A stretch of DNA of 63,989 nucleotides, filler included, from an uncultured bacterium (GTDB lineage: Bacteria; CAYJOG01), in assembly GCA_964371695.1 (NCBI GenBank). It is 22 parts of 22 records of this genome, joined end to end, with 100 filler letters (N's around TTAATTAATTAA, not from the genome) between each part and the next. Parts side by side here need not be neighbours in the genome. Positions count along the whole stretch, not along the records: positions 6,059 to 8,951 come from CAYJOG010000444.1; positions 9,052 to 11,933 come from CAYJOG010000445.1; positions 12,034 to 14,904 come from CAYJOG010000446.1; positions 15,005 to 17,868 come from CAYJOG010000447.1; positions 17,969 to 20,828 come from CAYJOG010000448.1; positions 20,929 to 23,777 come from CAYJOG010000449.1; positions 23,878 to 26,665 come from CAYJOG010000450.1; positions 26,766 to 29,611 come from CAYJOG010000451.1; 14 more parts are not named here. The stretch is one strand, 5' to 3'. Positions 8,090 to 62,779 of this stretch are shown here, piece after piece. The notes under the pieces are model-generated. The model did not search any database and was not told the DNA's origin. It saw only the letters and a program-made list of their open reading frames with translations. The first letter of the stretch is position 1, and each line of letters starts with the position of its first letter. Made by a program: the position numbers and the translations under genes.

Positions 8090-8207
8090 GGCCTTGAAAA
8101 AGTCCGTCCTGGACTTTTTCAGGCCCCGCCCATCGGGGCAAAGCCCTTCGGGGCGGGCGAAAACCAGCGCTCATCTCGGTTTTCGGAGGCATTCCATCCG
8201 GGAATGC
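8090..8207 (+). repeat. Four-helix dispersed structured element, copy 1
   Basis: TGAAAAAGTCC-gtcct-GGACTTTTTCA / CCCGCCC..GGGC-AAA-GCCC..GGGCGGG / CGAAAACC..GGTTTTCG / GCATTCC-atccg-GGAATGC; followed by a ~20-bp inverted repeat pair 8209..8369. Confidence 0.8.
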
Positions 8208-8396
8208 ACGTCGCCCTGAAAAACGCAACCCACCCCAATCCCTTGATTTTTCACCCGGTTTTGCGGGGCTTTTGACGATCTCCCCAAAAACCCCGCAATT
8301 TCTGCACCCCTTTTTGGGCCCCCGAAGCCCCTTTTTCCTACCCTTTTTGCGTTTTTCAAGGGCGACGAAAAAAGTCCCCCGATATACTCCATCACT

Positions 8397-8951
8397 GTGG
8401 TGAAACCCCAGAAAATCCGTCGCATGGCCCTCATGGTGCATCCGGCCAAGCCCCAGGTGGCCCCGGTGGCGCGGCGGCTGGTGCAGCTGGCCCAGGCGCA
8501 GGGTGTGACGGTGAGTGGTGTTTCGGTGGAAACCTCAGAGTTGCAGGCCGCCAGCCAGCGGTTGATGAAGTCTCTGGGGCTGGAATGCCGGACGCTTTCT
8601 GGAAAATCCGCGCCCCAGGTGCTGGTGGTGCTGGGGGGAGACGGCACGCTGCTTTCGGCGGCGCGCCTGGCTCGTAGAACCCGCACCCCCATTGTGGGCG
8701 TGAACATGGGTTATCTGGGGTTTCTCACCGAGATTCACCCCAAGGCGCTGGCCGTTGAGTTTGCCCGACTGGTGGCAGGGGATTACTGGCTGGAGCCCCG
8801 CCTGATGCTGGAGGTGACGATACGCCCCGCCAAGGGCGCGGCCCTGCGGTTGGTGGCCATGAACGACGCCGTGCTCAGCCATGGTGCGCTGGCCCGCGCC
8901 GAGCATTACGCCACGGTGGTGGATGACGTGCCCGTGATGGAGGTGTTGTGC
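8397..8951 (+). CDS. nadK: NAD(+) kinase (3' truncated)
   Basis: LGGDGTLL, GVNMGYLGFLT, AMND motifs. Confidence 0.93.
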
Positions 8952-9076
8952 NNNNNNNNNNNNNNNNNNNNNNNNNNNNNNNNNNNNNNNNNNNNTTAAT
9001 TAATTAANNNNNNNNNNNNNNNNNNNNNNNNNNNNNNNNNNNNNNNNNNNNAACCTCCTGATTTTTCTTTTGATTA

Positions 9077-9136
9077 GTGCGCGGGGGGGACACCGCGCCT
9101 ACTCCTGTATGGATTCCCGCTTTCGCGGGAATGACG
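9077..9136. repeat. GTAG-type REP hairpin plus ATTCCC-N8-GGGAAT (dRS3-like) palindrome
   Basis: GCGCGG..CCGCGCCTAC followed by GGATTCCCGCTTTCGCGGGAATGAC. Confidence 0.75.
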
Positions 9137-9195
9137 CTGGATTTCCAAGGGGTTTTCAGGCAATTCACGCAGCGTTTCACCCAGTTGGACAGTTA

Positions 9196-11436
9196 CTACC
9201 CCAGCAACTCCGGGCGAAAGCGGCGGATCATGCGGTGCAGGCGTTCGGCGGTGATTTCCCTGGGGCAATAACCCAGCGTCTTGATGACACGGGCGAAGTG
9301 TTCCAAGCTGGTGGTGTCGGTTTCGCCCAAGCTGGAAAGGGGTTTGAACAGGCGGCCCAGATAGGCGAGCAGCCAGGGGGGCGGCTGCGGGGGAAAAAAC
9401 TCTGTCAGAGCCGGGGCGTCCAGCGCGCCCAGCGCGGCGCACAAGGCCTCCTGAGAAAACATCAGAGGGCCTTTGCCTTTTCTGGACAGCTCCGAAAGGT
9501 TTTCCGCCGCCACCGCCAGCGCCTTGAGCCAGCGGGTGAGCAAACGGCGCGTGGCCTCGGGCGAGGTGAGGCGCGCCTGCTCCATGGTGGCCGACACAAA
9601 CCCCGCCAGCAGGGCACGGTCCTGGTCCAGAGCCGCCAGCGGGGCTTCTCCCCGTGCGCCCATCAGGCCCGCCACGGCTTTTTCCAGCGGTTCTTCTCCC
9701 AGCCCCTCCGCCAGCGCCAGCAGGCAGTCCCGACTGAGCGCGATGTCTCCCAGCCGCGTGGCCTGGGCGGCGTTCAGCACCTGTTCCAGCAACACACGTG
9801 TCAGCACCAGCAAGCGGGTTTCGCCGGGGGCCGCGCCGGGGGCGTCTTCGTTCAACACTGTGTTTGCCAGCGCCTCGGTCAACGGTTCGGTGCGGCCTTT
9901 TTCATAAAGCGTCTGCAGGGTGGTGGCGGCATCGAAATGTTTGTCAGCGAGCAACGACCACGCGCTCATCACCTGGGCGATGTCCTCTGCCGCGCCAAAG
10001 CTGCCCAGATTGGTGCCGTCGAGGTCCACAATCTTGTCTTCCAGCGGCAGTTGCGACAGGCTCAGTTCCAGGCCGCTGCTGGCCACGCGCTCGCGCACCT
10101 GCACAGTGGCCAGTTCCAGCACCTTCTGGTGTTTGAGTTGTTCCAGCAGCAGTTCGTTGGTGCTGGTGCGGCTGGTGTGGCCCGTGGGCAGACCCGGTTT
10201 GAGCTGGTCAAAAAGTTCGGCATATCCCGCAAGCTGGCCGGTTTTGGGGTTGAGGATGCGGGGGTTTTCCAGCAGTTTGTGCGCGAGCGCCCCCTGGCCC
10301 GGAAAAAGCGAATCGGTGAGTTTGCGCAAAAAAAGCTGCTTGTTGGGTGAGCCATCCTTGAGCTGGTAATCGCGGGTGAAAGTCACCTGGCGCTCTGAGC
10401 GCGTGAGCATGGGGGCCTGACTTTTGAGAATCAGGCGAATCTCGAAGGGGCCTTCCTCTACCAGCCGCCGCTGAATCTGGTGCCCCAGCAGGGCGCGGGA
10501 CTTGCGGGCGGCAGCCAGGGTTTTGTCGCCGCTGGACTGGTTGACCAGAAACGTGGTGAGCGGCTCGGCGTTGGCCAGCACGTCTTTGCTCTGACCCAGC
10601 CCCCCCTGTTCCAGCAACTGGCGCACACGGGTGCCCAGCGCCCCCGCCAGGCCAAAGGCGGCGCACACACTGGCGGCGGCCAGGGCAAGCACGTCCTTGT
10701 CCCCCTGTTTGGCTTCTTCAAACAGGGTTTTTTTGAGAGCCATTTCGGGCACGTGGTTGTCGTCGGCTTCGGCAGAGGCGGCCTCTGTGGCCGCCACAAG
10801 CGCCCCGCTGGAAACCAGCAGCGCCACCCGTTGACGGCCAATGGCCCGCACCAACGAGGCGGCGGGCAGGGGCCGCTCTCCCAGCCAGCGCGCCCCCAGG
10901 CAGGTGTGCAGGTGTTCCTGCAGCGCTTCATCCATAAAAAACCTGCCCCGCAGGGGGCGTTCCAGCACCTGCAACACCATGGCGGCCAGTTGATCTGGCC
11001 CCGGGGCCTTGCTGCGGATGGCCCCCAGCACCGCCGGGGCCATTTTCAGCTTGGGGGGCAACGAGGGATCAGGCAGGTGGTCCTTCCAGCGCGCCAGGGG
11101 CAGGGACACGAACAGGTTGGGCAGGCTGATGAAGCCGCTTTCCAGGTCCAGCACCGTGGTGTCGGTGGCGATGGCCATCAGGTCGCGCCGGGCCACGCGG
11201 GCCAGCTCCTCGCGCTCCGGGCCGGAAAGGCCCAGAAAACTTTCGCCAAAGGCCCGCGCAAGCAGGGCGCAGAGCGCGTCGGGGTCCAGGCCCTGGGCAT
11301 CGGGCAGTTTCAGCAGGTCGTCCGAAAGGGTCAGGCTGGCGTTCAGGCACACCCGCAGAAAATCAGCCAGATCAAAAAGACCCGTTTCAAGCGCCTTCAC
11401 GGCGCTGGAAAGCTCCAGCTTGGTCGCCAAAGTCAC
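9196..11436 (-). CDS. Large alpha-helical hypothetical protein (746 aa), possibly with a degenerate HDOD-like segment
   Basis: Long ORF with genome-typical codon usage, Leu/Ala rich; no confident family. Confidence 0.7.
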   Translation of the reverse strand: MTLATKLELSSAVKALETGLFDLADFLRVCLNASLTLSDDLLKLPDAQGLDPDALCALLARAFGESFLGLSGPEREELARVARRDLMAIATDTTVLDLESGFISLPNLFVSLPLARWKDHLPDPSLPPKLKMAPAVLGAIRSKAPGPDQLAAMVLQVLERPLRGRFFMDEALQEHLHTCLGARWLGERPLPAASLVRAIGRQRVALLVSSGALVAATEAASAEADDNHVPEMALKKTLFEEAKQGDKDVLALAAASVCAAFGLAGALGTRVRQLLEQGGLGQSKDVLANAEPLTTFLVNQSSGDKTLAAARKSRALLGHQIQRRLVEEGPFEIRLILKSQAPMLTRSERQVTFTRDYQLKDGSPNKQLFLRKLTDSLFPGQGALAHKLLENPRILNPKTGQLAGYAELFDQLKPGLPTGHTSRTSTNELLLEQLKHQKVLELATVQVRERVASSGLELSLSQLPLEDKIVDLDGTNLGSFGAAEDIAQVMSAWSLLADKHFDAATTLQTLYEKGRTEPLTEALANTVLNEDAPGAAPGETRLLVLTRVLLEQVLNAAQATRLGDIALSRDCLLALAEGLGEEPLEKAVAGLMGARGEAPLAALDQDRALLAGFVSATMEQARLTSPEATRRLLTRWLKALAVAAENLSELSRKGKGPLMFSQEALCAALGALDAPALTEFFPPQPPPWLLAYLGRLFKPLSSLGETDTTSLEHFARVIKTLGYCPREITAERLHRMIRRFRPELLG

Positions 11437-11604
11437 CTGCTCTCACGTAGTTCGGGAAAAACCAACCCCATAAGGTTAGCTGAAAATTATGGATGAATGT
11501 AAGCATCGGGTGAACCCGGTTCTGGCCAGAACCAAAGTCGTCACAGGGTGTTGGCCAACACGCCGATAAAGCGGTTCCGGCTTTTTTGAATTTATACTCC
11601 GGCC

Positions 11605-11844
11605 ATGACCTTTGTCCTCACCCTTGCCGACCTGGGCGAAGAAACCGAAAAACTGCTGGTGGTGGAGTGGTTTCTGAGCGAGGGCATGGTGGTGAACAAG
11701 GGCCAGGACCTGCTGGACGTGGAGACAGACAAGGCAGCCCTGACGGTGCCCAGCCCCGTGACCGGCACCCTGCGGCGGGTGCTGGTGGGTGAGGGTGAGG
11801 AAATTCTGCGGGACACGCCGCTGTGTGAAATCGTGCTGGGGTGA
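11605..11844 (+). CDS. Stand-alone biotin/lipoyl-attachment domain protein
   Basis: 79 aa; VVEW...GQDLLDVETDKAALTVPSP lipoyl motif. Confidence 0.88.
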   Translation: MTFVLTLADLGEETEKLLVVEWFLSEGMVVNKGQDLLDVETDKAALTVPSPVTGTLRRVLVGEGEEILRDTPLCEIVLG

Positions 11845-11881
11845 GTAACCATCAGAGAAAATCAAGGCGTAGGTGTGGTGT

Positions 11882-11933
11882 CCATTGCTGTCAGGTTTAT
11901 TGGTAGCCCCGGCGTCCCGCCGGGAGCAAAAAA
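11882..11933 (+). repeat. CATTGC-ended MITE end with GTAG REP; identical 52-nt copies (inverted) at 15054..15105 and 35575..35626
   Basis: CCATTGCTGTCAGGTTTATTGGTAGCCCCGGCGTCCCGCCGGGAGCAAAAAA; related copies at 35162..35370 and 49874..49968. Confidence 0.9.
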
Positions 11934-12033
11934 NNNNNNNNNNNNNNNNNNNNNNNNNNNNNNNNNNNNNNNNNNNNTTAATTAATTAANNNNNNNNNNN
12001 NNNNNNNNNNNNNNNNNNNNNNNNNNNNNNNNN

Positions 12034-12098
12034 CCCTGAGGGAGAGGGCAAGAAAAAAAACTCTTCTTGCGTCCACATCTACTCTGAAAATGCGCTAA
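12034..12098 (-). repeat. TAGAGC-ended MITE carrying a CCCTCTCCC..GGGAGAGGG hairpin
   Basis: Near-identical to 32781..32850, 61595..61663 and 63914..63989; related to 38294..38392 and 47192..47262. Confidence 0.85.
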
Positions 12099-12141
12099 CA
12101 GGCCAACAAAAGCCGTGTTGAATTCAAGACGGAACAGAGGA

Positions 12142-12175
12142 CAAAAAAAACGCCCCCTGTTTTCAGGGGGCGTTT
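12142..12175 (-). terminator. Rho-independent terminator downstream of etfA
   Basis: AAACGCCCCCTG-AAAA-CAGGGGGCG followed by a T8 tract on the - strand. Confidence 0.75.
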
Positions 12176-12217
12176 GTGTACGCACGATAAAAAGCCGGGG
12201 ATTAACCCTTGAAACCT

Positions 12218-12337
12218 GTTTATAAAGTCCGTCCTGGACTTTATAAACCCCCGCCGGCGGGGACAAAGTCCCCTTGACGGGCAAAAACCTCAGTGTTTTT
12301 AACACTTCGGCTTTTGGAGCGGGCCATCCAGGCCCGC
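12218..12337 (+). repeat. Four-helix dispersed structured element, copy 2
   Basis: GTTTATAAAGTCC-gtcct-GGACTTTATAAAC / CCCGCC..GGGGAC-AAA-GTCCCC..GACGGG / CAAAAACC..AGTGTT-AACACT..GGCTTTTG / GCGGGCC-atcca-GGCCCGC. Confidence 0.85.
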
Positions 12338-12364
12338 AAGAACGCCTGACAAAAAAGATTTTTG

Positions 12365-13333
12365 TCAGGCGTTCTTGGCGGCTTTGACCTTTTCGGTGAG
12401 GGCGGGAATGACCTCGAACAGGTCGCCCACGCAGCCCAGGCTGGCCACTTCAAAAATCGGTGCGTCGCCATCTTTGTTCACCGCGATGATGTGTTTGCTG
12501 TTGCTCATGCCCGCGAGGTGCTGAATTGCGCCGCTGATGCCCGCCGCGATGTAGACGTTGGGGGAGACGGTTTTGCCGGTCTGGCCCACCTGATCGCTGT
12601 GGGGCCGCCAGCCGCTGTCCACCGAGGCGCGGGAAGCCCCCACCACGCCGCCCAACTGGTCGGCCAGGGCTTCGAGGATGTTGTAGTTTTCGGGGCCTTT
12701 CATACCGCGTCCACCGCTTACAATGATTTCCGCTTCGGTGAGGTCGGTCTTGCCACCGGCGGGGGCCTCCACAGACTCCACGCGGGCCTTGATGGAACCG
12801 CCGTCAATGGCCACGGAGACTTCCTTCACTGTGCCCGCTTTGCCCGCGCCGCCTTCGGCCATGATGGCCTTGGGACGGATGGACACTACTTTCACGCCCG
12901 CACCCAGGTCCAGCTCGGCGATGGCTTTGCCCGAATAAACCGGACGGGTCACCTTGGGGCTGTCGGCGCTGCCTTCGATGCTGCTCACACCACCGGCAAA
13001 ACCGGCGTCGAGCTTGGCGGCCACGCGGGGGGCGATGTCATTGCCCTCACTGCTGGCGGTCACCAGCAGCAGGGCGGCCCCGGCCTGTTTTGCGGCCTCG
13101 GCAAATGCCTGGGCATAACCCTGCACGCTGAACTTCGCCAGTGCGGGGCTGTTCACCACATGCACTTCGTCTGCGCCATGGTCACCCAGGCCAGCGGCCA
13201 GGGCCGACACGTTGTCGCCCGCCAGCACGCCAATCACCGTGCCGCCCAGTTTTTTGGCGGCGGTGAGGGCTTCATAAGAAACGGGGCGGACCTTGCCGTC
13301 CCGGTGTTCGATGTAAACCGCGATTGTGCTCAT
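12365..13333 (-). CDS. etfA: Electron transfer flavoprotein subunit alpha
   Basis: VSGGRG, QVGQTGKTVSP, GISGAIQHLAGM. Confidence 0.97.
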   Translation of the reverse strand: MSTIAVYIEHRDGKVRPVSYEALTAAKKLGGTVIGVLAGDNVSALAAGLGDHGADEVHVVNSPALAKFSVQGYAQAFAEAAKQAGAALLLVTASSEGNDIAPRVAAKLDAGFAGGVSSIEGSADSPKVTRPVYSGKAIAELDLGAGVKVVSIRPKAIMAEGGAGKAGTVKEVSVAIDGGSIKARVESVEAPAGGKTDLTEAEIIVSGGRGMKGPENYNILEALADQLGGVVGASRASVDSGWRPHSDQVGQTGKTVSPNVYIAAGISGAIQHLAGMSNSKHIIAVNKDGDAPIFEVASLGCVGDLFEVIPALTEKVKAAKNA

Positions 13334-13344
13334 GGGGCGCTCCT

Positions 13345-14100
13345 TTACAGAACCTTCGCTTCGGTTTTGAGGTAGTTGAGGATGGCGTCGGCCAGTGTGG
13401 CGGCGTCGCCCTCCACTTTTTTGCCTGCGGCGCGGGGGGCCGGGGGGTTCAGCTTCACCACTTTGGTTTTGCTGCCATTGCCGCTGGGGGCCACTTCGTC
13501 CACCGGTTTCTTTTTGGCGGCCATGATGCCCTTGAGGTTGGCGTAGCGGGGTTCTTTGCTGCCTTTGTCGCAGGTGATGACTGCGGGTGTGCTGAAGGAC
13601 ACCACCTGGGTGCCGCCCTCAATGCCCCGCTTCGCGGTGCCGTTTGCGCCGTCCAGGGTCAGTTCGCCCACAAAACTCACACAGGGCAGGCCCAGCTGTG
13701 CGCCCAGCATCTGGCCCACGGCGGCGCTGCCGCCGTCGCTGGTGCTTTTGCCCAGCAGAATCAGGTCCGCGCCTTTGTCTTTCAGCACTTCGGCGAGCAT
13801 TTTGGCCGCGCCAAGGGGGTCGGCCCCAAAGTTGTCGTCCTTTAGAAAAAGGGCCTTGTCCGCGCCACGGGCCAGGGCGTCGCGCAGGGTGGTGGCCACC
13901 CGGCTGGGTCCGGCGCTGACCACGGTGACTTCCCCTCCCTGGGCTTCCTTCAGGGTGAGGGCTGTTTCCAGCGCGTATTCGTCATAGGGACTCATGATCC
14001 AGTTGATATCCCCCTCTTCAATGGCGGCGCCGCTGGCGGCCACTTTGATGCGGGCCTCCGTGTCTGGCACCTGCTTGATGCATACAAAAATATTGGGCAT
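13345..14100 (-). CDS. etfB: Electron transfer flavoprotein subunit beta
   Basis: CIKQVPDT, PYDEYALE, EPRYANLKGIMAAKKK. Confidence 0.97.
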   Translation of the reverse strand: MPNIFVCIKQVPDTEARIKVAASGAAIEEGDINWIMSPYDEYALETALTLKEAQGGEVTVVSAGPSRVATTLRDALARGADKALFLKDDNFGADPLGAAKMLAEVLKDKGADLILLGKSTSDGGSAAVGQMLGAQLGLPCVSFVGELTLDGANGTAKRGIEGGTQVVSFSTPAVITCDKGSKEPRYANLKGIMAAKKKPVDEVAPSGNGSKTKVVKLNPPAPRAAGKKVEGDAATLADAILNYLKTEAKVL

Positions 14101-20937: not shown

Positions 20938-21010
20938 AGCGGGAGACGGGGGTCGAACCCGCGACCCTCAGCTTGGAAGGCTGATGCTCTACCAACTGAG
21001 CTACTCCCGC
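20938..21010 (-). tRNA. tRNA-Gly (TCC)
   Basis: GCGGGAGTAGCTCAGTTGGTAGAGCATCAGCCT-TCC-AAGCTGAGGGTCGCGGGTTCGACCCCCGTCTCCCGCT. Confidence 0.96.
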
Positions 21011-21043: not shown

Positions 21044-21125
21044 TGGAGGGAGTTGGATTTGAACCAACGTAGGCGAAGCCAACGGGTTTACAGCCCGTCC
21101 CCTTTAACCACTCGGGCATCCCTCC
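21044..21125 (-). tRNA. tRNA-Tyr (GTA)
   Basis: GGAGGGATGCCCGAGTGGTTAAAGGGGACGGGCT-GTA-AACCCGT with a long variable arm; Tyr-Gly order as in tufB-type tRNA clusters. Confidence 0.96.
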
Positions 21126-29553: not shown

Positions 29554-29611
29554 CAGGGTGTTGAGAAAGTCCCTCCTGGTCTTTCTCAACCCATTTTGCT
29601 CAAGCAAAGCT
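29554..29611 (+). mobile_element. Left part of a MITE / four-helix element, cut by the contig end; close homologue of 62631..62779
   Basis: CAGGGTGTTGAGAAAGTCCCTCCTGGTCTTTCTCAACCCATTTTGCTCAAGCAAAGCT. Confidence 0.85.
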
Positions 29612-29711
29612 NNNNNNNNNNNNNNNNNNNNNNNNNNNNNNNNNNNNNNNNNNNNTTAATTAATTAANNNNNNNNNNNNNNNNNNNNNNNNNNNNNNNNN
29701 NNNNNNNNNNN

Positions 29712-32669: not shown

Positions 32670-32850
32670 GGTCACGGGCGGGTGAGGGGGAACAGGCTGG
32701 GTAGAAAGAATCAGGCTTTTTTCAAAAGTTCTCATTCCCCCTCACCCGCCTCAGATTTCGCTTCGCTCAACCTTCGGCTGCCCTCTCCCTCAGGGAGAGG
32801 GCAAGAAAAAATGCTCTTGTTACGTCCACGTCTACTCCGAAAATGCTCTA
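32670..32850 (-). repeat. TAGAGC-ended MITE with a CCCTCTCCC/GGGTGAGGG palindrome pair
   Basis: Matches 61575..61663 and 63914..63989. Confidence 0.85.
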
Positions 32851-32965
32851 GGAGAACCCGCACCCGAAAACCGGAGCTTGAAAAAAGCGCAGATTTTCGC
32901 GCTCGATACGGGGCTTTGCCCCGGTTACGGCGTTCGAAAAAATCCACGGAGGGATTTTTGAGGTA
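32851..32965 (-). repeat. Four-helix element, degenerate copy
   Basis: On the - strand: AAAAATCC-ctccgt-GGATTTTT / GGGC-AAA-GCCC / CGAAAATC..GGTTTTCG; fourth helix eroded. Confidence 0.65.
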
Positions 32966-32977
32966 AGTTTTATAGCC

Positions 32978-36481: not shown

Positions 36482-36952
36482 GTGTCAAAACCTGCGGCCA
36501 TGGACCTGACCGTGGCGGTGTTCACCGTGTTGCTGAGCCTGTTCCGCATGCCGTCGTATCAGACGCTGGAACAGGTGGCGGCGAGCCTGCGAGCACAGGG
36601 GGTGGATTTTGACGACGACACCCTCAAAACGGTTTTTGAAAACAACATGGCGAAACTGGCCAGCGCGCCGGTGCAGGTGCGCGTGTGCCACAACACCCAT
36701 TGTCAGGGTTTTCGGGAACACGCCCTGCCGCTGGTGGAACTGGCCCGCCTGAGCGCGGCCACGCCCCACGCCGTTTTTGTGCCGGATCACTGCCAGTATC
36801 TTTGCCGCGAAGGCCCCAATGTGCGGGTGTTCAAAGGGCTGGTGTATTGCCAGCACAGCGGCGTGATGGATGAAGCCGCGTGGCTGGCCGTGGTGGCAGA
36901 GGCCACCTTGCTGGCTTCGGGTTTTTCTTATACCGATGAACATTCAAAATAG
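36482..36952 (+). CDS. Thioredoxin-like [2Fe-2S] ferredoxin domain protein with a helical N-terminal extension
   Basis: VRVCHNTHC ... CQYLCREGPNV (C-x4-C / C-x3-C). Confidence 0.75.
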   Translation: MSKPAAMDLTVAVFTVLLSLFRMPSYQTLEQVAASLRAQGVDFDDDTLKTVFENNMAKLASAPVQVRVCHNTHCQGFREHALPLVELARLSAATPHAVFVPDHCQYLCREGPNVRVFKGLVYCQHSGVMDEAAWLAVVAEATLLASGFSYTDEHSK

Positions 36953-37191
36953 CATGAATATTCATCGGATTGTTTGGCCTTGCCGCTCGTCATGAACGGC
37001 TGCGGCCCGGCGCTGTGCAGGCAAAGCCTGCTTGCGCCACGAACACCTCCGGCGCTTGTTGCGCCTCGGTGTTCGAGTGAATTCATCCATGAATTCATAC
37101 CAATTCTTACCGGCACTGCCGGACTTCGCAGTACTCGTTTCCTACCGATTCATCACTCAGGGTTAATGCTGTTCCGGTTGAGAATTGGTAT
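36929..37191 (+). repeat. ~260-nt structured element (extended four-helix family); inverted homologue at 49584..49848
   Basis: Colinear similarity with compensatory substitutions in the stems; ATACC..GGTAT ends. Confidence 0.9.
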
Positions 37192-49583: not shown

Positions 49584-49848
49584 GTGCAAATTTTCAATCG
49601 GAACAACATTAATCCTGAACGATGAGCCGGTTTGGAAATGGGTGCTGCGAAGTCTGGCGGTTCGGTGAAAATTGGCATGAATTCATGGATGAATTCGACT
49701 CGAACACCGAGGCCCAGACAGGGCCGGAGGTGTTCGCGGCGCAAGCAGGCTTTGCCTGCGCCGCGCCGGGCCGCAGCCGTTCACGATGAACGGCAAGGCC
49801 ATTAAAACCAATGAACATTCCTGCTGTTTTGAATGTTCATTGGTATGA
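49584..49848 (-). repeat. ~260-nt structured element, second copy
   Basis: Reverse complement aligns with 36929..37191. Confidence 0.9.
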
Positions 49849-50363
49849 GATAGGCGCGGTGGGGACACCGCGCCCATTGCTGTTAGGGTTATGAAAAAAA
49901 TAGAGGAATTGTCTGGGTTTTTTGACGTAGCCCCGGCGTCTCGCCGGGAGTGTCAACCGCGCCAGCGGNNNNNNNNNNNNNNNNNNNNNNNNNNNNNNNN
50001 NNNNNNNNNNNNTTAATTAATTAANNNNNNNNNNNNNNNNNNNNNNNNNNNNNNNNNNNNNNNNNNNNAGACAAACCCCTCAATGTTCAAATCTACTGAA
50101 GAAATCGATTGTCTTCCGGCTTGGGGCGCTCCCGTGGAGATGAGGCGGGCAAAGCCCGCCGTGGTGGCCGCAACCTGTCAGGAACCGCTATACACAGGGG
50201 GTCCGGGGGAACCGCTGTTACCCCGGTGGGGGTGCGGGGGCAAAGCCCCCCCGCATAAAAATTGGGAGCGTGGGAGCGGCAATAGTTGCCAGTCCACCGG
50301 CAGGTTTTGTCAACAGGGCTGATTGGGTATTACGCCCTTATTTTGTTTATCATGGTGTCCTGC

Positions 50364-53494: not shown

Positions 53495-53496
53495 GC

Positions 53497-56470: not shown

Positions 56471-56493
56471 GCCCGCCGCCTTTTTTGACGGCA

Positions 56494-56659
56494 TCAAAAA
56501 GTCCTCCTGACTTTTTGACACCCCCGCCAGCGGGGCAAAATCCCCCTTGGCGGGCGAAAAGCTCCGGTTCCAGGAACCTCCACTTTTCGGGGGGCGCGCC
56601 GTCCGGGCGCGTGCGGCACTGTTTACAAAATCCGGTTTGGGGCTTATAAACAGTGCCGC
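56494..56659 (+). repeat. Four-helix element copy with a terminal long hairpin abutting the MFS start codon
   Basis: TCAAAAAGTC-ctcct-GACTTTTTGA / CCCGCCA..GGGG-caaaat-CCCC..TGGCGGG / CGAAAAG..CTTTTCG / GCGCGCC-gtccg-GGCGCGT / GCGGCACTGTTTA..TAAACAGTGCCGC-ATG. Confidence 0.85.
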
Positions 56660-58456
56660 ATGTCCTCTGCCCTTACCACCCGGGGAGAAGCTTCCTGGGG
56701 TTCAAAAATCGCTTACGTCTCTGCGTCCACGGCCAGCGGCGCATTTCACATGATCCTCACCGCCATGGTGATGATCTATTACAGCCCCCCCGGCGGTCAG
56801 GGGCGAGACGAACTGCTGCCCATCGTGGTCACCAGCACGGTGCTGGGCGTCGGCAAGATTCTGGACGCCTTTGCCGACCCCGTGGTGGCGTATCTGAGCG
56901 ACCGCACCCGCTCGCGCCTGGGGCGGCGCATTCCGTGGATCATCGCGGGCATACTGCCGCTGGGCATCTTTTTCATGGGGTTGTGGTATGTCCCCCCTGC
57001 GCTGCGCCACAGCGGCGCCAAGGTGATTCCCCAGCTTTCGCGCACCGACATGAAAATGTGCCAGACCCATATCAAGGGCCTGCGGGGCAAGGGAGAAGTT
57101 CCTGTCAGTGGCTGGTTTGACAAAGCACAGAGCGAGCCGTGGTTTGATAAATGCCAGCACCTGGCTGACCAGACCCAGAAAAAAGACGCCCGCAGCGCCT
57201 GCATGCGCGAAATGGAGCGCCTGAAGTCCAAGGTGAAAGGCACCAAACAGGACTGGCAAAAACTGGTGGGCGAGGACAGCCGCTGCACGTCCTATGGCAA
57301 GGGTTGTCCGCTGTTTCCCAAAGATCAGGAAGTGCCCGGCGCTGGCGAGGGCCACGGCGGCAAGGGGGGGGTGCTGGGCAGTTTCTTTCGCCAGTTTGGC
57401 CAGCACTGGAAGGTGGCCGTGTGGCTGATGCTGATGAGCTCCGGGTTCTGGCTCTCCTACACCGTGGTGTTTGTGCCCCATCTGGCCCTGATGCCCGTCA
57501 TTGCGCGCACCGACAAAAGCCGCATGGCGGTGAACTTGCTGCTGGCGATTTTCAACATTCTGGGCGTGCTGCTGCTGCAACAGATTTTGAGGGGCATTTT
57601 CACCAACGTGCTGAGCTTCCCCGACATGAGCCTGCCCTATTTCGCCACCGTGGCCCTGGTGGCCATGGTGCTGATTGCGCTTACGCCCCTGTTTGTGCGC
57701 GAGCCGCTGGATGAATACACCGAAGAGGAACATTACGGCCTGTGGGAGTCGTTCAAATGGTCCTTCCTCAACCGGGCGTTCATCATTTATTCCGTCAGCA
57801 CCCTGTTTTTGATGGTGGGCTTCACGGCGGTGCTGAGTTCCATTGAATATGTCGTACCGCTGCTCCTTCACCGCGAGGCGGCCAAGGAAATGACCAAGGT
57901 CTACGCCCTCATCATCGGCTCGGTCATGCTCAGTTTTGGCGTCATGGTGAAAATGGCGGGCACGGTGGATAAAAAACTGATTTATGGTGTGTCGCTGTTC
58001 GCCATGGCTGCCGTGATGCCGCTGTTGTACCTGCTGGGTGAACCCACCATTTTTGGCATGCCCACCATCTACTTCGCCTATGGCGTTTTCTTTTTCATCG
58101 GTGTGCCCGTGGCGGGCGTGATGAGCCTGCAAAACACCGTGCTGGCCGACATCATTGACGAAGACGAAATCAAAACCGGCCTGCGCCGCGAGGCCATGTT
58201 CTTTGGCTCCGAGGGACTCATCCGCAAAGGCACCGCCGCCATTGTGCCGCTCATGATGGGCAAGCTGTTTGAGGCCTACGGTTATTGCCATCCCACGGCC
58301 AGCAGCAACATGGGGGTGCGCTACTTGGGCCCCACCACGGCGTTTTTTGTGCTGATCGGTGCGGTGGCGTTTGTGTTTTACCCCATCCGCGAGCGGGAAC
58401 TGCGGGAAAAACGCATGAAATATCTGGCCGCCAAGGCAAGTTCAGAGAAACCATAA
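56660..58456 (+). CDS. MFS transporter of the glycoside-pentoside-hexuronide (MelB-like) family with an inserted Cys-rich loop
   Basis: DAFADPVVAYLSDRTRSRLGRRIPW, LADIIDEDE.KTG.RREAMFFG. Confidence 0.9.
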   Translation: MSSALTTRGEASWGSKIAYVSASTASGAFHMILTAMVMIYYSPPGGQGRDELLPIVVTSTVLGVGKILDAFADPVVAYLSDRTRSRLGRRIPWIIAGILPLGIFFMGLWYVPPALRHSGAKVIPQLSRTDMKMCQTHIKGLRGKGEVPVSGWFDKAQSEPWFDKCQHLADQTQKKDARSACMREMERLKSKVKGTKQDWQKLVGEDSRCTSYGKGCPLFPKDQEVPGAGEGHGGKGGVLGSFFRQFGQHWKVAVWLMLMSSGFWLSYTVVFVPHLALMPVIARTDKSRMAVNLLLAIFNILGVLLLQQILRGIFTNVLSFPDMSLPYFATVALVAMVLIALTPLFVREPLDEYTEEEHYGLWESFKWSFLNRAFIIYSVSTLFLMVGFTAVLSSIEYVVPLLLHREAAKEMTKVYALIIGSVMLSFGVMVKMAGTVDKKLIYGVSLFAMAAVMPLLYLLGEPTIFGMPTIYFAYGVFFFIGVPVAGVMSLQNTVLADIIDEDEIKTGLRREAMFFGSEGLIRKGTAAIVPLMMGKLFEAYGYCHPTASSNMGVRYLGPTTAFFVLIGAVAFVFYPIRERELREKRMKYLAAKASSEKP

Positions 58457-58774
58457 GCGCATCCCTTTTTCTCTCTGGTGGCGCGGGCATCCTTGCCCAT
58501 AGCTGCGAACTTTTGGTGACAAAGCAGGGTTTTACGCGCTTCACAGGAGTAGGCGCGACGCCCCCGTCGCGCAACAACCAAAGCAAAATCAAGGGTTTTT
58601 NNNNNNNNNNNNNNNNNNNNNNNNNNNNNNNNNNNNNNNNNNNNTTAATTAATTAANNNNNNNNNNNNNNNNNNNNNNNNNNNNNNNNNNNNNNNNNNNN
58701 CGAACAAACCTTTATCTTTTTGGCTCCCGAACGCCGTTATAATGGCCCCCAATAAACCCTCGGAGTCGCCTGCC

Positions 58775-58996
58775 ATGCTGGACAATCAAACACTGGAAAT
58801 GCTTAAGTTTTATAACGCCGGACTGGAGTTTTACCGCAAGCGGGAATGGGATGAGGCCATTGCAGAGTTCAAAAAAGCCTTGGAAATCACCCCCGATGAC
58901 GGCCCCAGCAAACTGTATGTGGAACGCTGCCAGCACGCCAAAGAGGACCCCTCTCTGGTGAGCGAAGACGGCGTGTTTGAATGGAAAACCAAGTAA
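58775..58996 (+). CDS. Small TPR protein resembling the C-terminal tail of class III adenylate cyclases
   Basis: YNAGLEFYRKREWDEA..F..AL..PDDGPSKLYVERC..DGVFEWKTK; GGAG RBS and upstream TATAAT. Confidence 0.75.
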   Translation: MLDNQTLEMLKFYNAGLEFYRKREWDEAIAEFKKALEITPDDGPSKLYVERCQHAKEDPSLVSEDGVFEWKTK

Positions 58997-59060
58997 CCGC
59001 GCTCACGCGCAATTTACCTACATAGAAAGGGAATCTCTTTTTTCGAGTGAAACAACCGTC

Positions 59061-59576
59061 GTGAACTGGCTGGATTTTGTCATTGTGGGTGTGATCGTCA
59101 CCGTGGTGGTGGTGGAGTACAAACGCAAACTCATTCAGGGGGCCGCCGCTGGTGTGTGCGCCTGGGTGGGGTTGAACTTTGCACTGCAGAACTTCCAGAC
59201 GATGGCCCCCAAAATGGGCGCTGTCCTGTCTTTTCTCGGCAATCCCTCAACCGCTTTTGCGGCGCTTTTCTGGGGAATTTTTCTGGCCGGTGTGCTGGGG
59301 GGCGCGTTTGTGTACCTCACCACCCGCATGGAACCCGCCGGAGATGCAATGGAACCGACCCTGGGCGCTATTTTTGGCCTTGTGTCGGGCGTCCAGATCA
59401 TCCGGTTTTTTTTGGTCTACCAGGTTCTTTTCAACCCAACCTCTAATTTTCAGAAGGTTGCGCAGGCTTCGGCCACTTACCAGTTCATCTACGAACTCCC
59501 GTTCCTGGGTGACATGGCCAAGTCCACCGAACAACTGCGCGACCCCACCAAAATCAAGGGTTCGGGAGGTTTCTAG
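59061..59576 (+). CDS. CvpA family membrane protein
   Basis: MNWLDFVIV start, four TM helices, LGAIFGLVSG. Confidence 0.75.
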   Translation: MNWLDFVIVGVIVTVVVVEYKRKLIQGAAAGVCAWVGLNFALQNFQTMAPKMGAVLSFLGNPSTAFAALFWGIFLAGVLGGAFVYLTTRMEPAGDAMEPTLGAIFGLVSGVQIIRFFLVYQVLFNPTSNFQKVAQASATYQFIYELPFLGDMAKSTEQLRDPTKIKGSGGF

Positions 59577-59618
59577 CCAGCAGATTCCCCTCCACATTTC
59601 ATTTCTCAAGGAGGGGCC

Positions 59619-60722
59619 ATGAGCAAGCCCACGACCAAAGCGGAGGAAAACACCTCCGCCCCCCCCGCCAAGGCGGCCACCGCCGCCAAGGCTCCCAACG
59701 AAGAAAAAATCAAGGCCCTGAAAGCGGCCTTTTCGTCTATTGAACGGGCGTTTGGCAAAAACGCCGTGGTGCGCCTGGGTGACCGGCCCACCGGACTGAA
59801 TTTTGAAGTAATCCCCTCTGGCTGCCTGAGTCTGGACCTCGCCATGGGCGTGGGGGGGTTTCCCCGTGGCCGTGTGGTGGAAGTGTTCGGCCCGGAATCG
59901 GGCGGTAAAACCACCATCGCCCTGCATGCGGTGGCCCAGGCCCAGGCCATGGGGGGCATCGCGGCTTTTATTGACGCCGAACACGCCCTGGACCCTTCCT
60001 ATGCCCAAAAGCTGGGCGTGGACATCGAAAACCTGGTGGTGAGCCAGCCCGACACCGGCGAGCAGGCCCTGGAAATCGCCGAACAACTGGTGCGCAGCGG
60101 CGCCATTGACGTGGTGGTGATCGACTCGGTGGCCGCCCTGGTGCCCCGGGCCGAACTGGAAGGCGACATGGGCGACGCCCACATGGGCCTTCAGGCCCGC
60201 CTCATGAGTCAGGCCCTGCGCAAACTCACCCCCGCCGTGAGCAAACACAACACCCTCGTCATTTTCATCAACCAGATCCGCGAAAAAATCGGCGTGCTCT
60301 ATGGCAGCCCCGAAACCACCACCGGCGGCCGGGCGCTGAAGTTCTACGCCTCGGTGCGGCTGGACATCCGGCGCATTGACAACATCCGCGAAGGCGGCGA
60401 AGTGGTGGGTGTGCGCACACGGGTCAAGGTGGTCAAAAACAAGGTCGCCCCGCCGTTCCGCAAGGCGGAGTTCGACATCATCTACGGCGTCGGCATCAGC
60501 CGCGAGGGCGACGTGCTGGACGTGGCCATTGAAACAGGCATCGTGGAACGGGCCGGCTCATGGTTCAGCTATGGCGGCGAACGCCTGGGCCAAGGCCGCG
60601 ACAAGGTGCTGGCGGAACTGAAAACCGACCCGGCCACCATGGCGAAAATCGAGGCAGAAGTACGGGAAAAGCTGAAGAAAAACGAGCTTCCTCCCCTTCC
60701 TGTCGCACCAAGAGAGGACTGA
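59619..60722 (+). CDS. recA: Recombinase RecA
   Basis: [32 protein letters not shown]. Confidence 0.99.
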
Positions 60723-60729
60723 GAAAATT

Positions 60730-61474
60730 ATGGAATTCATTCTGCCATTGGCCATGCTGGCCGTGGGGGTGGCGGCAGGCGCGTTCGTGGGCCTGCTCAG
60801 CGCCCGCGGCACACAAACCGGCAAAGTCGAGGAACTGCGCACCCAGCACGAACAGCAACTGGAAGCCGTGCGGGCCGAACTCGACAAAATGCACAAGGAC
60901 ACCCTGGCCACCTTGCGCCGAGACCACCAAAAGGCCCGCGAAAAGCTGGACAAAGACTCCCGCACCCGCAAGCTGGACATGCAAACCCAGGAAAAACGCC
61001 TCCAGAAACTGGAACAGGATCTGGAAAAACGCACCCAGCAGATCAACAACCTGGAGCGCGACCTGCGCAGGCGCGAAGACAAACTGACACAGGACGAACG
61101 GCGGCTTGAAGACGCCCTGATCACCGAACAGAAAAAACTTGAAGAAGTGGGCAAACTCACCGCCGAAGAAGCCAAGGCCGAACTCTTGAGCCGCATTCAG
61201 CGCGATGTCGAAGAAGAAGCCCAGCGGCTGGTGGCCAGCATTGAGAAAAAAGCCCGCGAAGAGGGCGACGCCAAGGCCCGCGAAATCGTCACCTTTGCCG
61301 TGCAGAAGGTGGCCGTGGGCGAGGTGCTGGACAACACCATCAGCGTGGTGGCCCTGCCGAGCGACGACATCAAGGGGCGCATCATTGGCCGCGAGGGCCG
61401 CAATATCCGCACCTTTGAAATGCTGGCGGGCGTGGACGTGATTGTGGACGACACCCCCGAAGCGGTGATCGTGT
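60730..61474 (+). CDS. rny: Ribonuclease Y (3' truncated)
   Basis: N-terminal TM, coiled coil, KH domain [20 protein letters not shown]; follows recA. Confidence 0.95.
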
Positions 61475-61757
61475 NNNNNNNNNNNNNNNNNNNNNNNNNN
61501 NNNNNNNNNNNNNNNNNNTTAATTAATTAANNNNNNNNNNNNNNNNNNNNNNNNNNNNNNNNNNNNNNNNNNNNTTTGCTCAACCCTCGGCTGCCCTCTC
61601 CCTCAGGGAGAGGGCAAGAAAAAATACTCTTATTGCATCCACGTCTACTCCAAAAATGCTCTAAATGAAGTCGGATACCGGAGGCTGGAAGCTGGAAAAA
61701 GAAAAGAACCCAATCGCTCATGCCCCCCCTTGCAGCCCTGTCATACCCCACAAAACG

Positions 61758-61944
61758 CCGTCATTCCCGCGAGAGCGGCAATCCAGTTCAAGCCAGTAAA
61801 CACCCAACCATTTTCATTGTTCTTTTGGTGGCGCAGGCATCCTGCCTGCGTTTTTTATAGATGAAGGCAGGCAAGATGCCTGCCCCACCAGAACTGGTTT
61901 TTGGCTGATGTTTTACTGGATTCCCGCTTTCGAGGGAATGACGG
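61758..61944. repeat. Nested element: outer dRS3-like inverted pair enclosing an inner GTGG REP pair
   Basis: CGTCATTCCCGCGAGAGCGGCAATCCAG ... GTGGCGCAGGCATCCTGCC..GGCAAGATGCCTGCCCCAC ... CTGGATTCCCGCTTTCGAGGGAATGACG; halves also at 14819, 16200 and 21200-21296. Confidence 0.82.
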
Positions 61945-62023
61945 TGGAGCGGCACAGGACTTTTTCTTATTACAGCTTCCGACCTCCGACTTCCAATCTC
62001 CAGCCTCCCGGCTCCCCCCCTGT

Positions 62024-62617
62024 CTATTTCTGAAACCGACTGCCGGGGGCGGTGACGGGAATGGCCGCCAGTTCCGGGGGAAGCTGGTCTTCGGGCCAGG
62101 CCTGGGCGCTCACCTCGGCCAGACAGGTGTAGGGCAGATTCAGGTCGGCAAAGGGGTTGCTGTGGCCGCTGCGGTTGATGATGCTGGCCACACCCGCCAC
62201 GACAGCCCCCTGCTCTTTCATCACGGCCATCACCTCGCGGGTGCTTTTGCCCGTGGTGATCACGTCCTCCACAATCAGCACCGGCGCGCCCGGCTCCAGG
62301 GCAAAACCCCGGCGCAGCAACATGGCGCCGTCTTTGCGCTCCGTGAAAATGTGCGGCAGGGCCAGGGCGCGGGCCACCTCGTGGCCAATGATGACGCCCC
62401 CCAGCGCCGGGCTCACCACCACCGCCGCCTTCACGCCCGATGCGTCCAGCCGGGCCGAGAGGGCCTGGGCCAGCCGGGCCGCCACCGGGGGGAACATCAG
62501 CACCCTGGCGCATTGCAGGTAGGTGTCCGAATGCAGGCCGCTGGAGAGCCGGAAATGGCCCTTGAGCAGCGCGCCGTGCTCCAGAAAGAGGTCCAGAACG
62601 TCTTCACCGGTCAACAT
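62024..62617 (-). CDS. pyrE: Orotate phosphoribosyltransferase
   Basis: GHFRLSSGLHS..YLQCA, IVEDVITTGKS. Confidence 0.96.
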   Translation of the reverse strand: MLTGEDVLDLFLEHGALLKGHFRLSSGLHSDTYLQCARVLMFPPVAARLAQALSARLDASGVKAAVVVSPALGGVIIGHEVARALALPHIFTERKDGAMLLRRGFALEPGAPVLIVEDVITTGKSTREVMAVMKEQGAVVAGVASIINRSGHSNPFADLNLPYTCLAEVSAQAWPEDQLPPELAAIPVTAPGSRFQK

Positions 62618-62630
62618 GGCGGGATCTTAG

Positions 62631-62779
62631 CAGGTTGTTGAGAAAGCCCCTCCTGGCCTTTCTCAACCCATTTTGCTCAGGCAAAGCCATCGCAAAATGG
62701 CGCTTTTATTGGGGTTTTAAAAACCCCAATAAGCGGAAAATCCATCCATGGATTTTTCAGGGTGTTTATCAACACCCTG
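62631..62779 (+). mobile_element. 149-nt MITE (four-helix family) with terminal inverted repeats and a TTAG duplication
   Basis: TTAG|CAGGTTGTTGAGAAA...TTTATCAACACCCTG|TTAG. Confidence 0.85.

What the first reader, a model, noticed from the sequence alone, without database searches (positions are those of the whole stretch)
8090..62779. Dispersed element conserved in fold rather than sequence: four covarying helices with ANGGA-type loops
Seen: intergenic copies at 8090-8207, 12218-12337, 56494-56612, 62631-62779, 29554-29611 (cut), 32851-32965 (-), and the cores of 36929-37191 and 49584-49848 (-) share one layout. H1 has loop (g/c)tcct-like, H2 is capped by C-AAA-G (GGC-AAA-GCC, GAC-AAA-GTC), H3 is closed by C(G/A)AAAA..TTTT(C/T)G, and a short purine linker leads to H4 with loop (a/g)tcc(a/g). 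The stems are almost wholly exchanged yet still pair: H4 is GCATTCC/GGAATGC, GCGGGCC/GGCCCGC, GCGCGCC/GGCGCGT, GAATTC/GAATTC or AAAATCC/GGATTTT, and outer H2 is CCCGCC/GGCGGG or CCATTTTGC/GCAAAATGG. On the opposite strand the H1/H4 loops read CAGGACG, CAGGAG, CATGGATG and CACGGAG. Established: A(N)GGA in hairpin loops is the CsrA/RsmA binding motif of CsrB/RsmZ RNAs. Inference: this is a structured RNA or ssDNA cargo spread by MITEs with different ends, acting either as a mobile protein-binding module or as a recognition structure for its mobiliser. I do not recognise it as a named family.
Basis: partly seen in the sequence, partly recalled or inferred. Interest (0 to 1): 0.8.

Follow-up and report, generated by a model that had tools for sequence, protein, structure and literature searches.

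The report
Mobile four-hairpin repeat family
A sediment bacterium carries about 265 copies of a small mobile DNA element whose four hairpins keep their shape and loop letters while the stems change freely, and the same hairpin module occurs in other bacterial phyla, so it seems to be read as a folded strand, by a reader not yet known.

Summary
All 8 listed copies match one covariance model. The genome (a 672-contig MAG; the window is short contigs joined by N linkers) holds 265 profile hits in at least 8 subfamilies. Pairing is kept while stems are exchanged: 45 of 46 pairs show double changes, 84-89% of cells are paired against 56-66% in shuffles.

The copies are MITEs. They have subfamily-specific terminal inverted repeats, target duplications (3-bp TNA in types A and B, 4 bp in type C) and a fifth, right-end hairpin. 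A related groundwater population has a precise empty site. No DDE transposase was found in the 83%-complete assembly.

The roughly 125-nt core is an exchangeable module. Chimeras exist. The module also occurs without inverted repeats, singly or in tandem, in Deferribacterales MAGs (9 of 41 genomes of that phylum) and in a Spirochaetaceae MAG. Rfam has no match.

The strand with GGA loops (CAUGGAUG) folds better in 152 of 173 local copies and in 21 of 21 foreign copies.

The CsrA reading stays open. csrA is present, but 65 of 148 H1 loops lack GGA, orientation to genes is near random, and no RNA data exist. I read it as a new variant of the MITE/REP kind whose reader is unknown.

The parts
12212..12373 (+). 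Complete A-type MITE (162 bp). It comprises a left end AAACCTGTTT, the H1-H4 core at 12216-12342, and a right-end hairpin H5 (AAGAACGCCTGAC...GTCAGGCGTTCTT). CTTG flanks it at 12208-12211 and 12374-12377.
   Evidence: Sequence. R1 gives 103.3 bits. A contig of run X6 joins 12173 to 12374 and lacks the element, with a single CTTG at the junction.
62631..62779 (+). Complete C-type MITE (149 bp). The inverted repeats are CAGGTTGTTGAG and TCAACACCCTG, the core is at 62635-62760, and the right-end hairpin is CAGGGTGTTTATCAACACCCTG. TTAG duplications lie at 62627-62630 and 62780-62783.
   Evidence: 104.3 bits; row C514_1060+.
36931..37190 (+). Complete B-type MITE (260 bp). It has a left-end hairpin H0 (TACCGATGAACATTC...GAATATTCATCGG), the core at 36974-37101, a long right arm and a right end GAGAATTGGTA. 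The flanks are TTA and TTG.
   Evidence: 108.4 bits; row C454_1400+.
49585..49845 (-). Complete B-type MITE (261 bp) with its core at 49674-49802. The flanks are TCA and CCA.
   Evidence: 113.8 bits; row C458_2623-.
8091..8212 (+). Four-hairpin core of a small subfamily (cluster 6, 4 copies). H4 is GCATTCC-ATCCG-GGAATGC. The outer ends were not determined.
   Evidence: 64.0 bits.
56489..56615 (+). Four-hairpin core, the only member of its subfamily. H4 is GCGCGCC-GTCCG-GGCGCGT.
   Evidence: 55.8 bits.
32840..32966 (-). D-type core. H1 is AAAAATCC-CTCCGT-GGATTTTT and H4 is degenerate.
   Evidence: cluster 3; 46.8 bits.
29558..29611 (+). C-type copy (H1 and half of H2) cut off by the contig end; the N run starts at 29612.
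   Evidence: 28.1 bits.

Best explanation
The copies belong to a superfamily of about 265 non-autonomous transposable elements (MITEs of 150-265 bp) in an uncultured sediment bacterium.

Shown. Each subfamily has its own terminal inverted repeats: A GAGCCTGTTT, B TACCAAT, C CAGGGTGTTGA, D GAACTCATCTC. Each has a right-end foldback hairpin whose 5' arm repeats the left end. Types A and B carry 3-bp TNA target duplications and type C carries 4 bp. A related population has an unoccupied site. The roughly 125-nt interior is a self-standing module of four hairpins. It is swapped between subfamilies. It also occurs without inverted repeats, singly or head to tail, in Deferribacterales and Spirochaetaceae genomes. 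Its stems are free to change as long as they pair, while three loops stay fixed: C-NTCNT-G, GGC-AAA-GCC and C-ATCCRT-G. The strand bearing GGA loops folds better in every lineage examined.

Inferred. In this genome the elements are moved in trans by DDE transposases of the IS5 family kind that act on the inverted repeats. The module itself is older cargo, comparable to REP/BIME units. It persists because master copies must form these hairpins on the GGA-loop strand when that strand is single (RNA or DNA), where a trans-acting factor reads the loops. CsrA is the only named candidate.
For: Copy number and subfamilies. Inverted repeats and the fifth hairpin.

Target duplications:
- A-type, 31 of 52 copies have identical 3-bp flanks (TCA 9, TTA 8, TGA 5, TAA 4), against a shuffled mean of 7.3 and maximum of 15.
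- B-type, 14 of 25, against 5.5 and a maximum of 11.
- C-type, 8 of 23 identical 4-bp flanks, against 2.2 and a maximum of 6.

Empty site: an X6 contig skips 12174-12373. There are 44 solo inverted-repeat-pair palindromes of C type. Chimeras: cluster 5 (A-type H1-H2 with B-type H3'-H4) and C46_5945.

Covariation. Within subfamilies there are 84 distinct double changes that keep pairing.

Cross-phylum module: a pattern made only of the loops, followed by R1, recovers full four-helix copies in a Spirochaetaceae MAG (42.3 bits) and in Deferribacterales MAGs (19-41 bits). In that phylum 9 of 41 genomes match at E<=1e-4. Among 40 unrelated genomes, 1 matches at that level.

Strand: the minus strand is more stable in 152 of 173 copies and in all 8 subfamily consensuses, and in 14 of 14 and 7 of 7 foreign copies. 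Single changes within subfamilies: A:C (which is G:U on the minus strand) 85 events against G:T 44. On the fitted alignments, 64 against 41 cells and 74 against 43 cells.
Against: No DDE transposase was found in G000: PF01609, PF13358, PF13359 and PF00665 gave 0 matches, and TnpB gave 0. The assembly is 83% complete and breaks at repeats (60 of 265 hits lie within 60 nt of a contig end), so the mobiliser is inferred only. The D-type duplication cannot be told from an extension of the inverted repeat. The Deferribacterales copies show no inverted repeats or duplications, so how they spread is unknown. The strand asymmetry is consistent but small (about 1.5-2 to 1) and could be a mutation bias. 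No reader of the loops is shown. Hairpins can also stay paired by templated correction of one arm from the other without selection. There is no expression data.
Confidence: 0.6

Rival explanations
1. One reading: the module is a CsrA/RsmA-binding RNA. Transcribed from the minus strand, it shows GGA in the H4 loop (CAUGGAUG) and in the H1 loop (CAGGAC or CAGGAG). It would titrate CsrA or place neighbouring genes under CsrA control, and MITEs would spread it.
For: The better-folding strand is the GGA strand in all lineages. H4 has TCC, which is GGA on the minus strand, in 141 of 158 copies, and all Deferribacterales and Spirochaetaceae H1 loops shown carry it. From memory, CAUGGAUG fits the CANGGANG consensus for CsrA/RsmE sites. 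csrA is present in G000 and in 3 of 3 other element-bearing genomes. In tandem gene contexts the minus strand is the sense strand in 41 of 66 cases, and in 13 of 15 for B-type.
Against: 65 of 148 H1 loops lack GGA; GTCGT dominates types A and B. The invariant GGC-AAA-GCC cap is left unexplained. Orientation is close to random (41 to 25). In three Deferribacterales loci the UCC strand, not the GGA strand, lies between a stop codon and a terminator. csrA is in 38 of 41 genomes of that phylum, with or without the element. No promoter was identified.
Confidence: 0.2
2. The module is a REP-like single-stranded DNA substrate of HUH/Y1 enzymes (RAYT-type). H1 and H4 would be hairpins recognised by shape and loop on one DNA strand, as REPs are by TnpA-REP.
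For: G000 encodes three RAYT-like proteins that score 79.7-80.1 bits against a cut-off of 80 for NF047646. Each is flanked by GC-rich hairpins with TCC(Y) loops. About 140 further hairpins outside the elements have TCCC loops, many of them GYGCGGTG-TCCC-CACCGCRC, so TCC/GGA loops are a theme of this genome. A D-type copy lies about 290 nt downstream of one RAYT gene, in the same direction. Insensitivity to gene orientation fits a DNA-level role.
Against: The variable but matching target duplications and the inverted repeats are not what Y1 transposition leaves. There is no GTAG or GTGG tag beside H1 or H4, and those tags define REPs (PMC6006769 passages; PMC3733652 abstract). H1 and H4 lie in direct, not inverted, order. 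Y1_Tnp was found in only 1 of 3 other element-bearing genomes. Orientation shows no bias against GC skew (61 of 129).
Confidence: 0.12
3. Nothing reads the loops. The hairpins stay paired through templated correction of quasi-palindromes and rapid recent bursts. The loops are shared only by descent, and the module is neutral filler that helps the two ends of a MITE meet.
For: Most copies belong to a few young subfamilies. Orientation and placement look like those of selfish DNA. No function is shown.
Against: The loops and the GGC-AAA-GCC cap survive complete turnover of every stem, across at least 8 subfamilies and in two other phyla with 40-52% G+C. That is the reverse of what neutral drift predicts. 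The strand asymmetry is also unexplained.
Confidence: 0.1
4. The module is an RNA element on the plus strand, with UCC and CCUCC loops, sitting in 3' untranslated regions. It would protect transcripts or pair with Shine-Dalgarno sequences.
For: Three Deferribacterales loci show the order gene stop, element in plus direction, intrinsic terminator (L133, L081, L151). REPs are known to lie mostly downstream of coding regions (PMC3733652 abstract).
Against: The plus strand is the worse folder in 152 of 173 local copies and 21 of 21 foreign copies. In G000 only 25 of 66 tandem-context copies have the plus strand in sense. Other Deferribacterales copies are antisense to both neighbours (L136, L141, L142).
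Confidence: 0.08

Closest known systems
Bacterial MITEs (Correia/CREE of Neisseria, ERIC, RUP, Nezha, Chunjie)
   Same: Small size, no ORF, high copy number, terminal inverted repeats, short target duplications, intergenic placement, and transcripts predicted to fold (review PMC10969869, passages read).
   Different: Known MITEs fold mainly because their two ends pair. Here the interior is four local hairpins with fixed loops. That interior is shared by elements with four unrelated end classes and also occurs with no inverted repeats in other phyla.
REP / BIME / REPIN elements with RAYT transposases
   Same: Hairpins whose stems vary between families, strand-specific features, position downstream of genes, occurrence in clusters, and RAYT-like genes in the same genome (PMC3733652 abstract; PMC6006769 passages).
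   Different: No GTAG or CGTC tag at a hairpin foot. Four different hairpins in one fixed order instead of inverted doublets. Target duplications and inverted repeats are present. The RAYT-like genes are flanked by other hairpins.
BOX elements of Streptococcus pneumoniae
   Same: A modular repeat built of ordered sub-units and predicted to form stable RNA structure (mentioned in PMC10969869; further detail is recalled).
   Different: No sequence relation was tested. BOX modules vary in number, whereas here the order H1-H4 is fixed and the conserved letters sit in the loops.
CsrB/RsmY/RsmZ sponge RNAs
   Same: Several hairpins with GGA in the loop on one strand, and csrA present.
   Different: No match to any Rfam CsrB/Rsm family within the element. 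Hundreds of dispersed DNA copies in both orientations. No promoter or terminator of its own was identified. GGA is missing from many H1 loops.

Membership tests
MITE (non-autonomous DDE transposon) | Short (under about 500 bp), no coding capacity, many copies | tested here: met
   149-263 bp; 265 profile hits.
MITE (non-autonomous DDE transposon) | Terminal inverted repeats | tested here: met
   Four classes, A to D. Not seen in the Deferribacterales copies.
MITE (non-autonomous DDE transposon) | Target-site duplications that vary between copies but match within a copy | tested here: met
   A 31 of 52, B 14 of 25, C 8 of 23, each above every one of 1000 shuffled pairings. D is uninformative.
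MITE (non-autonomous DDE transposon) | Presence/absence polymorphism with a precise empty site | tested here: met
   One locus: an X6 contig lacks 12212-12373.
MITE (non-autonomous DDE transposon) | A full-length insertion sequence with the same ends | tested here: not met
   No DDE_Tnp_1, DDE_3, DDE_Tnp_4 or rve in the 83%-complete assembly. Absence is not proven.
REP/REPIN with RAYT | GTAG or GTGG tag 0-2 nt 5' of the hairpin | tested here: not met
   The flanks of H1 and H4 on either strand carry no such tag. Definition taken from PMC6006769.
REP/REPIN with RAYT | RAYT gene flanked by the repeat | tested here: not met
   The three RAYT-like genes are flanked by other TCC-loop hairpins; only one has a D-type copy about 290 nt away.
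CsrB/Rsm-type CsrA-binding RNA | Several GGA motifs in hairpin loops of the transcribed strand | tested here: inconclusive
   On the minus strand, H4 has it in 141 of 158 copies and H1 in 83 of 148. Which strand is transcribed is unknown.
CsrB/Rsm-type CsrA-binding RNA | Transcribed as an RNA that binds CsrA | not testable with these tools
Any Rfam 15 family | Score at or above the gathering threshold | tested here: not met
   Only 3 tRNAs in the window. At E<=1 only weak matches appeared, and I read them as lying outside or at the edge of the elements.
IS200/IS605-derived elements (PATE) | No inverted repeats, no duplications, Y1 TnpA or TnpB partner | tested here: not met
   Inverted repeats and duplications are present; no TnpB.
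Integron attC sites | A single folded recombination site beside gene cassettes and an integrase | not tested
   Considered only because attC is also conserved in fold. The four-hairpin layout and the dispersed intergenic placement differ.

The most novel reading that the evidence does not exclude
The four-hairpin unit is an ancient, cross-phylum binding module whose loops (CAUGGAUG, CAGGAN and the GGC-UUU-GCC cap on the better-folding strand) are read by a conserved host protein such as CsrA. In this sediment bacterium IS5-type MITEs have captured it and copied it hundreds of times. That would wire many loci into one post-transcriptional network and would give lineages with no known CsrB-like RNA a CsrA-titrating element.
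Probability: 0.15. Interest if true: 0.85.

Novelty: new variant of a known kind. Interest (0 to 1): 0.6.

Why it matters
Three points make this more than another repeat family.

- It separates the vehicle from the cargo. The same folded module rides on at least four kinds of transposon ends and also exists without them. That is rarely documented for bacterial MITEs.
- The module keeps its loops and its fold across phyla with very different base composition, and it always folds better on the same strand. This points to a reader that works on a single strand and has not been described.
- It is experimentally reachable. Two of the matching genomes in the Deferribacterales phylum have hits about 1.9-2.0 Mb into a single contig, so they look nearly closed. 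If either is a cultured strain, stranded RNA-seq, CsrA or RAYT binding assays and loop mutants could settle what the module does.

It also explains why this MAG is so fragmented.

Tried and rejected
- **Rfam.** Gathering thresholds on the window and E<=1 on seven element loci gave nothing for the element.
- **Expression.** No RNA holder is listed for window:12034-14904, so expression could not be examined.
- **Relatives.** The 'relatives' offered were only 'same domain' genomes, and the order holds G000 alone. No close-kin comparison was possible, and the organism's phylum stays unknown; a protein-atlas look-up with the RpoC fragment was uninformative.
- **Mobiliser.** Five transposase or nuclease families gave no match in G000.
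- **Plasmids.** blastn of a full A-type element against plasmids gave no match.
- **Viral contigs.** The loop pattern hit 2 stretches, which I did not examine further.
- **Replication-strand bias.** None was seen (61 of 129).
- **H1 as an intrinsic terminator.** The simple scan does not call it one, and terminator-like sites were no commoner than in shuffles (8 against 7.9).
- **csrA co-occurrence in the Deferribacterales phylum.** Uninformative, because csrA is in 38 of 41 genomes.
- **L100 (Kiritimatiellaeota, 20 bits).** It looks like a chance match inside G+C-rich, probably coding DNA, and its genome gave no match.
- **G041.** The whole-genome search did not re-find L095's own copy because only 150 of 944 candidates were scored. 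Counts per foreign genome are therefore lower bounds.
- **Earlier scan notes.** None exist for this genome or this sequence.
- **Literature.** 'miniature inverted-repeat' with 'CsrA' gave 1 paper, the Rfam 12.0 paper, seen as a listing only. 'CsrA / repetitive element / GGA / hairpin / intergenic repeat' gave 2 listings that look unrelated by title. The Deferribacter repeat search gave nothing specific. No description of this element turned up in these searches.
Full report
**What the window is.** The 63,989 bases are not one stretch of chromosome. They are about 22 contigs of roughly 2.9 kb joined by N44-TTAATTAATTAA-N44 linkers. The genome behind it (G000) has 672 contigs, 3.43 Mb and 61% G+C, and is rated 83% complete. 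It is the only member of its order among the genomes held. The DNA is held by sediment metagenome runs, and a relative is held by groundwater runs.

**The observation.** Model R1 recovers exactly these eight in the window at E<=0.001. A sequence profile of seven window copies finds 265 hits at E<0.01 in G000, of which 234 are at E<1e-5 and 173 are near full length. At 80% identity the 173 copies fall into clusters of 68, 29, 27, 18, 8, 6, 4 and 3, plus 10 singletons. Sixty of the 265 hits lie within 60 nt of a contig end, which explains the fragmented assembly.

**Fold against sequence.**
- On a hand-checked 20-copy alignment with 46 pairs, 82.0% of cells pair against 64.2% in shuffles, and 183 cells show changes on both sides against 67.8.
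- On model-fitted alignments the figures are 89.3% against 66.1% (66 rows) and 84.0% against 56.2% (39 rows from three lineages).
- In both fitted alignments 45 of 46 pairs have double changes, 0 of 500 shuffles reach the observed values, and slid controls pair in at most 51%.
- The fitted alignments lean towards the structure, and copies are related by descent, so these are not probabilities.
- The invariant letters sit in the loops and caps: C-NTCNT-G in H1, GGC-AAA-GCC in H2 and C-ATCC-T-G in H4.
- Within subfamilies I counted 84 distinct double changes that keep a pair, 44 G:T events, 85 A:C events and 115 other mismatches, over 163 copies in 8 clusters.

**They are MITEs.** The left-end sequence recurs after H4 as the 5' arm of a fifth hairpin, and the 3' arm of that hairpin is the right inverted repeat.
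- A-type (median 183 bp): 31 of 52 copies with both ends found have identical 3-bp flanks, nearly all TNA, against 7.3 in shuffled pairings (maximum 15). The wider flanks often read CCCTNAGGG.
- B-type (median of the listed copies about 260 bp): 14 of 25, against 5.5 (maximum 11).
- C-type (149 bp): 8 of 23 identical 4-bp flanks such as TTAG, CTAA and TTAA, against 2.2 (maximum 6).
- D-type: TA on both sides in 7 of 10, which cannot be told from a longer inverted repeat.
- Forty-four solo palindromes made of just the two C-type ends are scattered in the genome.
- A contig of groundwater run X6, roughly 91% identical over the neighbouring genes, joins 12173 to 12374 through 32 homologous letters. 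It therefore lacks the element at 12212-12373 and has one CTTG where the window has two.

Duplications of 3 bp (TNA), 4 bp and TA are those I recall for subgroups of the IS5 family. That attribution is from memory. No DDE_Tnp_1, DDE_3, DDE_Tnp_4, rve or TnpB gene was found in G000, which in an 83%-complete, repeat-broken assembly does not show absence.

**The core is a separate module.** Cluster 5 joins A-type H1-H2 to a new hairpin and B-type H3'-H4, and C46_5945 joins D-type H1-H2 to B-type H3-H4. A pattern made only of the three loops matches 61 copies in G000. R1 then singled out the following:
- a Spirochaetaceae MAG copy at 42.3 bits, with four perfect hairpins;
- several copies in two Deferribacterales MAGs at 19-41 bits, some head to tail.

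Whole-genome searches give at least 4 and 5 copies in those two genomes. In their phylum, 9 of 41 sampled genomes match at E<=1e-4, 7 of them new. Among 40 unrelated genomes only 1 matches at that level. These copies have entirely different, A+T-richer stems but the same loops, and some have a GGAATAATCC-type H2 cap like the D-type. I saw no inverted repeats or duplications there. Tandem arrays end in a partial H1. Orthologous loci in different genomes keep the element (L141/L150 and L138/L153). Rfam has no family for it.

**Which strand folds.** The reverse strand of the model, whose loops read CAUGGAUG and CAGGAC, has the lower folding energy in the following:
- 152 of 173 G000 copies;
- all 8 subfamily consensuses;
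- 14 of 14 and 7 of 7 foreign copies.

The cause is that A:C mismatches on the model strand, which are G:U on the other strand, outnumber G:T. The counts are 85 against 44 events, 45 against 18 G:U pairs in the foreign copies, and 64 against 41 and 74 against 43 cells on alignments that were fitted to the model strand. The effect is modest but always in the same direction. It would hold for RNA and, more weakly, for single-stranded DNA.

**Context.** Gene calls are from my own codon-usage caller. Of the 173 copies, 134 overlap a predicted gene by 40 nt or less. Of the 107 with called genes on both sides, 66 lie between tandem genes, 29 between divergent genes and 12 between convergent genes. 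In tandem contexts the model strand is the sense strand in 25 of 66 cases, and in 2 of 15 for B-type. There is no bias against GC skew (61 of 129). In the Deferribacterales MAGs three loci read gene stop, element on the model strand, terminator (my reading), while three other copies are antisense to both neighbours. This is the placement of mobile DNA, not of an oriented regulatory RNA.

**Candidates for a reader.**
- *CsrA.* csrA is present in G000 and in the three foreign genomes tested. It is also in 38 of 41 genomes of the Deferribacterales phylum, so its presence carries little weight. H4 has GGA on the folding strand in 141 of 158 copies, but H1 only in 83 of 148.
- *RAYT-like proteins.* G000 has three, scoring at the NCBIfam cut-off. 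Each is flanked by GC-rich hairpins with TCC(Y) loops. About 140 further hairpins outside the elements have TCCC loops, so TCC/GGA loops are a theme of this genome. However, the module lacks the GTAG tag that defines REPs, it has duplications, and Y1_Tnp was found in only 1 of 3 foreign genomes.
- No RNA run is listed, so transcription is untested.

**Verdict.** It is a MITE superfamily whose vehicle (ends, duplications) and cargo (the four-hairpin module) can be told apart. The cargo is older and wider than the vehicle. It is selected for pairing and for three loops, and it folds best on the GGA strand. What reads it is not known. The CsrA idea is neither refuted nor supported beyond motif likeness.

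Noticed in passing
window 2940-61574 (44 N runs, for example 2940-2983 and 2996-3039): The window is a chain of about 22 unrelated contigs of roughly 2.9 kb joined by N44-TTAATTAATTAA-N44 linkers. Neighbourhood across a linker means nothing.
   Followed up: yes
window 49852-49874 (-); G000 genome-wide: A second, unrelated hairpin repeat, GYGCGGTG-TCCC-CACCGCRC, often followed by TACTCC (that is, GTAG on the other strand). About 140 hairpins outside the four-helix elements have TCCC loops, many of this form. It looks like a classical GTAG-tagged REP family.
   Followed up: partly
L002:1420-1926(-), L003:1345-1815(+), L004:1375-1911(-) (G000 contigs C29, C53, C11): Three paralogous RAYT-like (HUH/Y1) genes scoring 79.7-80.1 bits against the cut-off of 80 for 'REP-associated tyrosine transposase'. 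Each lies next to GC-rich hairpins with TCC(Y) loops. The L004 gene is bracketed by two direct copies of GGCGCAGGCGTCCCGCCTGTGC.
   Followed up: partly
G000, for example C2:2756, C2:11343, C7:1835: Another abundant perfect hairpin, ATTCCCGCGAAAGCGGGAAT, prominent among the 68 GAAA-loop hairpins on the listed strand.
   Followed up: no
L002:1310-1400; G000 C212 around 3400: Long G and C homopolymer runs (GGGGGGGGGGCCCCCCCCCC, also A and T runs) beside genes. These are probably assembly artefacts.
   Followed up: no
window 12148-12175: A strong terminator-like hairpin (12 pairs followed by TTTTT) lies about 37 nt from the A-type insertion at 12212.
   Followed up: no
L133:285-590; L081:142-430; L152; L154: In Deferribacterales-phylum genomes the module forms head-to-tail arrays of 2-3 units. 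Some units lack H3. Several arrays sit between a stop codon and a terminator.
   Followed up: partly
L145, L146 (viral contigs): Two viral contigs match the loop-only pattern. They were not checked with the model.
   Followed up: no
window 2750-2822(+), 20938-21010(-), 21044-21125(-): Three tRNA genes, the only Rfam matches in the window.
   Followed up: no
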